From Symsagittifera roscoffensis (taxonomy: Eukaryota): a stretch of DNA of 64,000 bases. The position numbers and the translations under genes were made by a program. Position 1 is the stretch's first letter. Each line of letters starts with the position of its first letter. The notes below the pieces were generated by a model. It was not told where the DNA came from and did not search any database. It worked only from the letters and a program-made list of their open reading frames with translations. The stretch covers positions 46,113,437 to 46,177,436 of the forward strand of contig NC_087064.1 in the NCBI RefSeq assembly GCF_963678635.1, written 5' to 3'. Positions 3,253 through 3,855 of the stretch are shown piece by piece.

Positions 3253-3855
3253 TTGCCCCGCGATAAAATGTCCGACAGAAGATATCACTTGCTCAAGACA
3301 TCATCTTCAAAAAATCTCCTGATTGCGGATTCTCAAGCACGCCATCTTGATTTTCCAAATTTCAATATCTTGTCCCTACCTGGGGCCCGGATTAGTGCGG
3401 TCCAAAACTTCTTACCCGAGAAAGACAAATTCAACATCATCGCTCTGCTCATCGGCGGAAACGACGCCTTCAACGGAAAAGACCCCTCCAGTATACCTGC
3501 AGCCGACATTGCTGAAGAACTGTCGAAGCTAGCCGAGGAGCTGTGTGAACGAGCCAAAAAAGTTTTCGTCATCGGAATCCCTCATCGTAGTGAGAACCGA
3601 GCTCGATCTGCAAAAATAAACGAATTCATAAGAAAGATAAAAGGAACTTGGAAGTTTAGAGGAGTGAGTGAAAAAATCCACAGCTCATATCATTTGAAAA
3701 CTGACGAAGTGCACCTCAGTGAAGAAGGTCTGAAGGGCATTAAAAGTATTCTCAAGAATAAAATCTTATACGATAAACATTCGAACATCTGCAATACAGA
3801 AGGACATCTGGTATATTACGAGTGTCGTTTCAAGAACTGTCAGTGCCCCTATTAA
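3253..3855 (+). CDS. SGNH/GDSL-family esterase-domain ORF, upstream ORF of the CR1-like element LINE-B
   Basis: 200-aa ORF with SGNH blocks: IADSQARHL (block I-like), LIGGNDAF (GxND block III), DEVHLSEEG (DxxH block V). It lies immediately upstream and in the same orientation as the PHD-containing ORF1. CR1-like LINEs with esterase plus PHD ORF1 modules are a described class. Confidence 0.7.
   Translation: MPRDKMSDRRYHLLKTSSSKNLLIADSQARHLDFPNFNILSLPGARISAVQNFLPEKDKFNIIALLIGGNDAFNGKDPSSIPAADIAEELSKLAEELCERAKKVFVIGIPHRSENRARSAKINEFIRKIKGTWKFRGVSEKIHSSYHLKTDEVHLSEEGLKGIKSILKNKILYDKHSNICNTEGHLVYYECRFKNCQCPY

What the first reader, a model, noticed from the sequence alone, without database searches (positions are those of the whole stretch)
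3253..3855. A second, LINE-borne SGNH esterase in the same window: possible module sharing between the LINE and LTR elements
LINE-B has a separate 200-aa esterase ORF upstream of its PHD ORF1. Its block II region (SLPGARISAVQNF) resembles the LTR-element block II (SFGGASVAQVIKI in copy 2, SFAGAATPQMLAT in copy 1) beyond the generic SGNH signature. Two unrelated retroelement classes in one 64-kb stretch carry related esterase modules. This suggests either domain exchange or convergent recruitment of a membrane- or lipid-acting activity.
Basis: inference. Interest (0 to 1): 0.65.

Follow-up and report, generated by a model that had tools for sequence, protein, structure and literature searches.

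The report
Standalone SGNH esterase gene in LINE
The 195-codon reading frame is a real, conserved esterase gene at the front of a three-gene LINE retrotransposon that two giant LTR elements later split; those LTR elements carry their own esterase domain, but the two esterases are only distant cousins, so nothing points to a swap between them.

Summary

It is the first gene of a 4.6-kb LINE. 'LINE-B' (3220-4370) and the RT ORF at 40259-42901 are one element. A 35-kb nested insertion of two Ty3/gypsy elements split it. Rejoined, it aligns over 4593 bp at 98.5% to an uninterrupted paralog.

The layout is esterase ORF, then a PHD-like/RRM-like ORF1, then APE-RT ORF2. It recurs in relatives down to 43% esterase identity.

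All three LTR copies carry an SGNH domain downstream of integrase. LINE and LTR esterases are homologous over the whole domain, but at about 22% identity (hhalign E 8.5e-6). The LTR profile matches E. coli TesA as well as it matches the LINE esterase. The shared block I/II flavour is also present in the zebrafish ZfL2-1 LINE esterase.

The two esterases lie side by side because of nested insertion. There is no sign of recent exchange, and an ancient shared retroelement esterase lineage remains possible. Both phenomena have published precedents, so interest is modest.

The parts
3220..4370 (+). 5' part of the LINE: 48-nt leader, esterase ORF, spacer and the first 122 codons of ORF1
   Evidence: Rejoined to 39533-42971, it gives a single 4593-bp blastn HSP at 98.5% to the uninterrupted paralog L001:7953-12545. 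Similarity starts at 3220.
3268..3855 (+). Esterase ORF ('ORF0'), 195 aa, SGNH hydrolase. Catalytic Ser22, Gly39, Asn65, Asp146, His149, plus a C-terminal GH-x(5-7)-C-x(4-5)-C-x-C motif.
3870..3973 (+). Two copies of a 40-nt unit (3870-3909 and 3934-3973) in the ORF0-ORF1 spacer. Each can form a two-tier hairpin.
   Evidence: Analogous hairpins occur in the spacers of diverged relatives L005 and L003. The energy z-scores are significant only in L005.
4005..4370 (+). ORF1, 5' part: PHD-like Cys/His zinc finger. It is cut by the LTR insertion after codon 122.
4371..39529 (-). Nested LTR insertion, 35,159 bp. Ty3/gypsy copy 2 has LTRs at 4371-4856+27507-27906 and at 38647-39529 (TG..CA ends) and a GCC target duplication at 4368-4370 and 39530-39532. 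Copy 1 (4857-27506, 22.65 kb) sits inside the left LTR of copy 2, with 884-bp LTRs at 99.7% identity and an AAT target duplication.
39533..40063 (+). ORF1, 3' part (RRM-like region). It ends with TGA at 40061-40063, followed by CTAG.
40064..42901 (+). ORF2 (APE endonuclease + reverse transcriptase), a 945-codon open segment in the same frame as ORF1. The APE domain starts upstream of the first ATG at 40391.
42902..42971 (+). 3' UTR with a (CAA)n tail; end of similarity to L001
13232..13881 (-). SGNH domain of LTR copy 1, downstream of integrase (GDSLV, SFAGA, G-ANDVS, DGIHF). It has a 1-bp frameshift near 13655.
29340..29715 (-). SGNH domain of LTR copy 2 (GDSLV, SFGGA, GTNDVS). It is frameshifted and lacks the C-terminal part because of an internal deletion.
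58096..58740 (+). SGNH domain of LTR copy 3 (VDSLV, SFSGA, GTIDVS, DGIHF), with an in-frame stop at 58627-58629

Best explanation
The ORF is the first of three genes of a young CR1-like LINE family. The genes are an esterase ORF, a PHD-like/RRM-like ORF1 and an APE-RT ORF2, and the element ends in a (CAA)n tail. The ORF encodes a compact, catalytically complete SGNH esterase. It has no coiled coil and carries a small C-terminal Cys/His cluster. By analogy with the characterised ZfL2-1 ORF1p esterase, it most likely binds cellular membranes. It may also hydrolyse a short-chain ester on a lipid, glycan or protein, helping the LINE ribonucleoprotein assemble or travel (inferred). ORF1 would supply the nucleic-acid binding (inferred). 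ORF2 is probably made by read-through of the in-frame UGA-CUAG stop (inferred from sequence). This copy was inactivated when a Ty3/gypsy element inserted into ORF1. A second, 22.6-kb relative then inserted into that element's LTR. These LTR elements encode their own SGNH domain within a very long region downstream of integrase. The two esterases share only SGNH (Lipase_GDSL_2-type) ancestry. They lie in one window because of nested insertion. They represent separate, old acquisitions, or at most a very old shared lineage, and not a module exchanged between these elements.
For: Shown: the ORF, its SGNH motifs, fold and conservation. Shown: the LINE is a single element (one 4593-bp HSP at 98.5% after removing 4371-39532), with TG..CA LTR ends and target-site duplications. 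Shown: the three-ORF layout recurs in L001, L002, L003 and L005 at 43-96% esterase identity. Shown: the stop between ORF1 and ORF2 is in frame, TGA CTA G or TGA CTG, in the window, L001, L003 and L005. Shown: the LTR elements have gag-PR-RT-RH-IN followed by SGNH, and their SGNH family passes the Pfam cut-off (41.8 bits; 25 of 25 members). Only a remote LINE-LTR relation was found: hhalign 7% probability vs the copy-1/3 type, 92% and E 6.4e-7 vs the copy-2 type, 83% and E 8.5e-6 vs the merged LTR profile, all at 22% identity. LTR HMMs score the window esterase at 2.1 and -0.6 bits. The LTR profile matches TesA (37.9) about as well as the LINE esterase (39.2). Within-family identities are much higher: 40-96% for the LINE family and 51-89% for each LTR family, with 31% between the two LTR families. 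The functional analogy rests on ZfL2-1: active on pNP-acetate, binds negatively charged liposomes (PMC3905857).
Against: The LINE-family HMM scores copy-2-type LTR domains (median 16, maximum 27.5 bits) higher than any SGNH chain in the PDB (maximum 14.2 bits) or E. coli TesA (0.9 bits). The LINE profile also matches copy-2-type sequences (hhalign score 41-52) better than TesA (19.4). From the LINE side, therefore, the LTR domain is among the nearest detectable relatives. Only one cellular control (TesA) could be run in the profile-profile comparison. No esterase activity, membrane binding or read-through has been measured for these proteins. The LINE clade was not assigned by phylogeny.
Confidence: 0.65

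Rival explanations
1. Ancient module sharing. The LINE ORF0 esterases, the ZfL2-1-type ORF1p esterases and the Ty3/gypsy post-integrase SGNH domains all descend from one retroelement-borne esterase. That esterase moved between retroelement classes long ago and has since diverged to about 20% identity.
For: All three share a block I/II flavour (DS-x-x-R-x-h; h-x-h-x-G-A) with similar spacing. Of the four PDB chains the N-terminal LINE profile matched, only the ZfL2-1 esterase aligned across blocks I-III; the three bacterial chains aligned on block III only. The ZfL2-1 N-terminal 59 residues score 36.2 against the LINE profile and 40.0 against the LTR profile in about 50 columns. The LINE profile prefers copy-2-type LTR sequences over TesA. 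Schneider et al. argued for a monophyletic origin of transposon esterases.
Against: The LTR profile matches TesA as well as it matches the LINE esterase. The transposon-specific His (H191, four residues before the block III Asn) is Phe or Leu in 23 of 24 aligned LINE-family sequences (gap in one) and Met in the window LTR copies and both family consensuses. HMMER profiles of both LTR families do not reach 4c1b at E<=10. In rotifers, LINE esterases did not cluster with LTR or PLE GDSL ORFs. Only one cellular outgroup was tested.
Confidence: 0.25
2. Recent domain exchange between the particular LINE and LTR families present in this window.
For: They are physically adjacent in the window, and both families are young and abundant (LTR pairs 98.5-99.7% identical; LINE copy 98.5% identical to a paralog).
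Against: Identity between the domains is about 22%, against 40-96% within the LINE family and 51-89% within each LTR family (31% between the two). No nucleotide similarity was detected in the window self-comparison. The domain contexts differ: a stand-alone ORF with a Cys/His tail versus an internal domain of a roughly 3,000-codon region. The adjacency is explained by nested insertion with target-site duplications.
Confidence: 0.02
3. The ORF is a host gene fragment or a chance ORF next to a LINE, not a LINE gene.
For: It is a separate ORF in a different frame from ORF1, and its Lipase_GDSL_2 score is below the Pfam cut-off.
Against: It starts 48 nt inside the element's 5' end, as defined by similarity to L001. 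It sits in the same position upstream of an ORF1 in L001, L002, L003, L004 and L005; APE/RT genes follow in L001 and L003, a faint APE hit in L002, while L004 is interrupted and L005 ends after ORF1. The closest 90% cluster alone has 62 members.
Confidence: 0.02

Closest known systems
Esterase-type (type IV) ORF1 proteins of non-LTR retrotransposons: the ZfL2-1 ORF1p esterase (PDB 4c1b) and the CR1, L2, RTEX and Neptune esterases (Kapitonov & Jurka 2003; Schneider et al. 2013, PMC3905857)
   Same: It is an SGNH esterase encoded upstream of the APE-RT gene of a LINE. The catalytic Ser/Gly/Asn/Asp/His residues are kept. Block I (DS-x-x-R-H-h) and block II (PGAR-I/V) are very like ZfL2-1. It is a compact domain of about 165 residues. 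A coiled-coil-less esterase ORF has a precedent in RTEX-1_BF in their Table S1.
   Different: It is a stand-alone 195-aa ORF with no coiled coil or arginine-rich motif. A second ORF (PHD-like + RRM-like) follows it, whereas type IV elements are described as lacking RNA-binding domains. The transposon-specific His191 position is Phe or Leu. It has a C-terminal Cys/His motif. HMMER similarity to 4c1b is marginal (12.4-14.4 bits, E 0.25-0.93).
GDSL esterase ORF3 of Vesta LTR retrotransposons and Athena Penelope-like elements in bdelloid rotifers (Rodriguez, Kenefick & Arkhipova 2017, PMC5408684)
   Same: An SGNH/GDSL domain lies downstream of pol in LTR retrotransposons, and the same enzyme type occurs in different retroelement classes in one genome. 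That study found LINE esterases did not cluster with the LTR/PLE ones and inferred independent capture.
   Different: Here the SGNH domain is part of a region of about 2,970 codons downstream of integrase in 22.6-kb Ty3/gypsy elements, not a short ORF3. Sequence relatedness to the Vesta ORF3 was not tested because no sequences were available.
Cellular compact SGNH hydrolases: bacterial sialate esterase/lysophospholipase L1-like enzymes, PAF acetylhydrolase Ib alpha, and E. coli TesA (TAP)
PHD(+RRM) type III ORF1 of CR1/L2-lineage LINEs (Metcalfe & Casane 2014, PMC4120745)
   Same: The LINE's ORF1 begins with a PHD-like Cys/His finger, with weak Pfam hits to C1_2, zf-RRPl_C4 and PHD. It continues into an RRM-like region that is conserved in relatives.
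   Different: In that survey, esterase (type IV) and PHD/RRM (type III) were properties of different elements. Here they occur together as two separate ORFs in one element.

Membership tests
SGNH/GDSL hydrolase superfamily (Pfam Lipase_GDSL / Lipase_GDSL_2) | Four conserved blocks carrying the catalytic Ser (I), Gly (II), Asn (III) and Asp-x-x-His (V) | tested here: met
   The residues are Ser22, Gly39, Asn65, Asp146 and His149. They are conserved in 23, 23, 23, 21 and 24 of 24 family members.
SGNH/GDSL hydrolase superfamily (Pfam Lipase_GDSL / Lipase_GDSL_2) | Profile match above the curated threshold | tested here: met
   Lipase_GDSL scores 24.1-24.2 bits against a cut-off of 23.6. Lipase_GDSL_2 scores 27.7-27.8 bits, below its 32.9 cut-off. 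22 of 24 family members hit GDSL_2 at E<=0.1.
SGNH/GDSL hydrolase superfamily (Pfam Lipase_GDSL / Lipase_GDSL_2) | Three-layer alpha/beta/alpha fold with a parallel five-stranded sheet | tested here: met
Esterase-type (type IV) ORF1p of non-LTR retrotransposons (Schneider et al. 2013) | Encoded 5' of the APE-RT ORF within a non-LTR retrotransposon | tested here: met
Esterase-type (type IV) ORF1p of non-LTR retrotransposons (Schneider et al. 2013) | Esterase preceded in the same protein by a coiled-coil multimerisation domain | tested here: not met
   Only about 14 residues precede block I, and the model has no N-terminal helix. Exceptions without a coiled coil exist in their Table S1: RTEX-1_BF and CR1_AC_1.
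Esterase-type (type IV) ORF1p of non-LTR retrotransposons (Schneider et al. 2013) | Transposon-specific His (H191), four residues before the block III Asn | tested here: not met
   ZfL2-1 reads LHVGTND. The window protein has Leu61. Across the family the position is Phe in 19, Leu in 4 and a gap in 1 of 24 aligned sequences, never His.
Esterase-type (type IV) ORF1p of non-LTR retrotransposons (Schneider et al. 2013) | Transposon-specific Ser (S228) on beta-4, pairing with H191 | tested here: inconclusive
   The C-terminal half of 4c1b could not be aligned. The corresponding strand here is KVFVIG, which is hydrophobic.
Esterase-type (type IV) ORF1p of non-LTR retrotransposons (Schneider et al. 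2013) | Significant sequence similarity to ZfL2-1/CR1 esterases | tested here: inconclusive
   HMMER gives 12.4-14.4 bits, E 0.25-0.93. hhalign against the 59-residue N-terminal fragment gives 84% probability, E 7.6e-6.
Esterase-type (type IV) ORF1p of non-LTR retrotransposons (Schneider et al. 2013) | Esterase activity and binding to negatively charged membranes | not testable with these tools
   This needs recombinant protein, pNP-acetate assays and liposome flotation.
LTR-retrotransposon ORF3 GDSL esterases (Vesta type, Rodriguez et al. 2017), tested for the LTR-element domains | SGNH domain encoded downstream of pol, inside the LTR element | tested here: met
   The family scores 41.8 bits on Lipase_GDSL_2.
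LTR-retrotransposon ORF3 GDSL esterases (Vesta type, Rodriguez et al. 2017), tested for the LTR-element domains | Catalytic residues intact | tested here: met
   The family consensus has GDS, G, GTND and DGIH. The three window copies are damaged: copy 1 has a frameshift, copy 2 a frameshift and truncation, copy 3 has VDS and GTID plus a stop.
LTR-retrotransposon ORF3 GDSL esterases (Vesta type, Rodriguez et al. 2017), tested for the LTR-element domains | Sequence relatedness to the Vesta/Athena GDSL ORFs | not tested
   From the LINE side it holds: LTR copy-2 type scores 41-52 against TesA 19.4. From the LTR side it does not: TesA 37.9 against LINE 39.2. Cross-family HMM medians are 8-16 bits and about 0 bits. 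Only one cellular control was used.

The most novel reading that the evidence does not exclude
The stand-alone LINE esterase, the classical CR1/L2/RTEX ORF1p esterases and the SGNH domain inside the giant Ty3/gypsy post-integrase region may all belong to one retroelement-associated SGNH lineage. That lineage would have been passed between non-LTR and LTR retrotransposons, extending the proposed monophyly of transposon esterases to LTR elements.
Probability: 0.25. Interest if true: 0.5.

Novelty: new variant of a known kind. Interest (0 to 1): 0.3.

Why it matters
Esterase domains in LINE ORF1 proteins have been known since 2003. They are the only enzymatic activity found in LINE first ORFs, and their role is still unresolved. 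This family separates the esterase from the nucleic-acid-binding ORF1 into its own short gene. It also lacks the coiled coil and the polar His position (H191) thought to typify transposon esterases. That makes it a clean natural test case for what the esterase alone contributes to retrotransposition. The window also shows that SGNH domains in LTR elements are not confined to bdelloid rotifers. The proposed exchange between the two elements is not supported, so the finding adds members and a variant architecture and does not add a new principle.

Tried and rejected
1. An AF2 model of the LTR-element SGNH domain (alignment A2) had pLDDT 48, so it was not used for fold search.

2. HMMER profiles of both LTR SGNH families found no SGNH chain in the PDB at E<=10. 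This gave no PDB baseline from the LTR side.

3. The representative-library search listed only LINE-family members in its top 150, so the rank of the LTR domains could not be read from it.

4. Pattern plus tblastn scans of prokaryotic genomes and viral contigs with the LINE esterase alignment confirmed no relatives.

5. The machine-read Supplementary Figure S1 of Schneider et al. was garbled and was not used as sequence data. Only Table S1 was used.

6. Cluster look-ups gave no names or accessions, so the host organism stays unidentified. FERM_N and CH domain hits in genes flanking relatives suggest an animal.

7. A second SGNH-like string in the 1607-aa LTR ORF (VVIVAGSDF...YSLPGAELNQM...LLLFAGMNDHL) scored only 2.7 bits with the LINE HMM. 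It is not claimed as a domain.

8. The 1607-aa and 869-aa LTR segments have no Pfam hit (other than the SGNH domain at the start of the 1607-aa ORF) and no PDB hit.

9. dN/dS between the window copy and L001 is uninformative: 11 differences, 8 of them nonsynonymous, as expected for neutral decay of individual copies.

10. The Kapitonov & Jurka 2003 paper is not held in the library. Statements about it rest on citations in other papers and on general knowledge.

Full report

WHAT THE SURROUNDINGS SHOW. A self-comparison of the window and the junction sequences show two nested Ty3/gypsy elements on the minus strand.

- Copy 1 spans 4857-27506 (22.65 kb). Its 884-bp LTRs are 99.7% identical, with TG..CA ends and an AAT target duplication.
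- Copy 1 sits inside the left LTR of copy 2.
- Copy 2 spans 4371-39529. Its LTRs are 4371-4856+27507-27906 and 38647-39529, about 99% identical, with a GCC target duplication at 4368-4370 and 39530-39532.

Removing 4371-39532 joins 'LINE-B' to the LINE whose RT ORF is at 40259-42901. The rejoined sequence (3220-4370 + 39533-42971) aligns as one 4593-bp HSP at 98.5% to an uninterrupted paralog, L001. The two 'LINEs' are therefore one element.

The element's genes are as follows:

- the esterase ORF (3268-3855), starting 48 nt from the 5' end;
- ORF1 (4005-4370 + 39533-40063, 298 aa), with a PHD-like zinc finger and then an RRM-like region;
- ORF2 (open from 40064 to 42901), encoding APE and RT;
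- a (CAA)n tail ending at 42971.

An esterase ORF followed by an ORF1 recurs in L001, L003 (48% esterase identity), L005 (43%) and, degraded, L002. APE/RT genes follow in L001 and L003. L005 ends after ORF1. In L004 a BEL/Pao element interrupts the LINE. The esterase is thus an intrinsic, conserved first gene of this LINE family.

THE LTR-ELEMENT ESTERASES. All three LTR copies encode gag-PR-RT-RH-IN and, downstream of integrase, an SGNH domain. The domain lies at 13232-13881 (-) in copy 1, 29340-29715 (-) in copy 2 and 58096-58740 (+) in copy 3. The window copies are damaged by a frameshift, a truncation, an in-frame stop and substitutions. Their families are large and have intact GDS / G / GTND / DGIH motifs:

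- 479 hits for the copy-1/3 type;
- 199 hits for the copy-2 type;
- these two types are related to each other at hhalign E 3e-31.

Family members pass the Lipase_GDSL_2 threshold (41.8 bits).

ARE THE LINE AND LTR ESTERASES SPECIFICALLY RELATED? They are homologous. Profile-profile alignment is collinear over blocks I-V. The LINE family against the merged LTR families gives 140 columns, 22% identity, 83% probability and E 8.5e-6. Against the copy-2 type it gives 92% and E 6.4e-7. Against the copy-1/3 type it gives only 7% and E 0.005. All three families hit the same two Pfam families.

Cross-family HMM scores are low:

- the LINE HMM on copy-1/3-type proteins has a median of 8.3 bits;
- the LINE HMM on copy-2-type proteins has a median of 16 and a maximum of 27.5 bits;
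- the LTR HMMs on LINE-family proteins have medians near 0 and a maximum of 14 bits;
- the window esterase itself scores 2.1 and -0.6 bits with the two LTR HMMs.

Pairwise Smith-Waterman z-scores are 7.0 (copy 2), 4.8 (copy 1) and 1.45 (copy 3).

E. coli TesA served as a cellular control. The LINE profile prefers the LTR copy-2 type (score 41-52) over TesA (19.4). The LTR profile, however, matches TesA (37.9, E 3e-5) as well as the LINE esterase (39.2, E 1.6e-5). This asymmetry fits a divergent LINE family and an LTR domain close to the superfamily consensus. It does not fit a sister relationship.

Of the four PDB chains that the N-terminal LINE profile matched, ZfL2-1 was the only one to align across blocks I-III. 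The ZfL2-1 fragment scores 36-40 against both profiles in about 50 columns. The resemblance is therefore a feature of retroelement esterases in general. It is compatible with an old common lineage but gives no evidence of exchange between these two elements. No nucleotide similarity links the domains. They are adjacent because of nested insertion.

MECHANISM (INFERRED). Schneider et al. showed that the ZfL2-1 esterase is a low-turnover acetyl-esterase that binds negatively charged liposomes. They proposed membrane-assisted RNP assembly or transport. By analogy, the ORF0 protein most likely targets membranes or removes a short acyl group. ORF1 would supply RNA binding. ORF2 would be produced by read-through of the in-frame UGA-CUAG stop. 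None of these steps has been tested for this family.

COMPARISON WITH KNOWN SYSTEMS. The nearest known kind is the type IV esterase ORF1p of CR1/L2/RTEX/Penelope elements. This family differs in five ways:

- the esterase is a stand-alone ORF without a coiled coil;
- a PHD/RRM-type ORF1 follows it, whereas a survey of Jockey-superfamily ORF1s treated type III and type IV as belonging to different elements;
- the transposon-specific His191 position is Phe or Leu;
- it has a Cys/His tail;
- its HMMER similarity to 4c1b is only marginal.

A coiled-coil-less esterase ORF has a precedent in RTEX-1_BF. SGNH domains in LTR elements have a precedent in the bdelloid Vesta elements. There, LINE esterases did not cluster with the LTR/PLE ones and independent capture was inferred.

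VERDICT. Both retroelement classes carry SGNH modules. The relation is remote, exchange between these elements is not supported, and the concept is already published. I rate it a new variant of a known kind, with interest 0.3.

Noticed in passing
window 40061-40067; also L001, L003, L005: The LINE ORF1 ends with TGA followed by CTAG and is in the same frame as ORF2. The APE domain of ORF2 begins well upstream of the first ATG (40391). The same in-frame TGA CTA G or TGA CTG is found in relatives down to 43% esterase identity. This suggests programmed stop-codon read-through producing an ORF1-ORF2 fusion.
   Followed up: partly
window 3870-3909 and 3934-3973: The ORF0-ORF1 spacer holds two copies of a 40-nt unit that can form a two-tier hairpin. 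Diverged relatives have two or three analogous hairpins (GGUACC-loop-GGUGCC-ACC). The folding z-scores are significant in L005 (-3.8 and -4.6) but not in the window copies (-0.25 and -0.9).
   Followed up: partly
window 6173-15080 (-): The region downstream of integrase in Ty3/gypsy copy 1 is about 2,970 codons. It consists of a 370-aa segment, the SGNH domain, a 1640-aa segment, a single in-frame stop at 8780-8782, and an 869-aa segment. Apart from the SGNH domain it has no Pfam or PDB match. Copy 2 is an internal-deletion derivative that keeps only the ends of this region.
   Followed up: partly
window 4857-27506 within 4371-39529: The insertion order can be read from the nesting: the LINE first, then gypsy copy 2 (LTRs 98.5-99.2% identical), then gypsy copy 1 into copy 2's LTR (LTRs 99.7% identical). 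Both insertions have 3-bp target duplications, GCC and AAT.
   Followed up: yes
window 47886-53267 (+): Gypsy copy 3 contains an internal tandem duplication of about 2.7 kb (47886-50560 vs 50556-53267, 93.7% identical). This copy runs off the end of the window.
   Followed up: no
window ~12300-12545 (-), residues ~386-450 of the 1640-aa segment: This stretch contains a string resembling SGNH blocks I-III (VVIVAGSDF...YSLPGAELNQM...LLLFAGMNDHL). It includes the same SLPGA as the LINE esterase but has no block V. It scores only 2.7 bits with the LINE HMM, so it is unsupported as a domain.
   Followed up: partly
window 957-1331 (+): This is the C-terminal RT fragment of a different CR1-like LINE (motif ...YYERLKELNISSLEYRRKRG...), lying upstream of the esterase-bearing LINE.
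   Followed up: no
L002 6787-7266 and 8001-8591: In one relative locus, two Lipase_GDSL_2-type ORFs lie about 700 bp apart, both upstream of the LINE ORF1 and APE genes.
   Followed up: no
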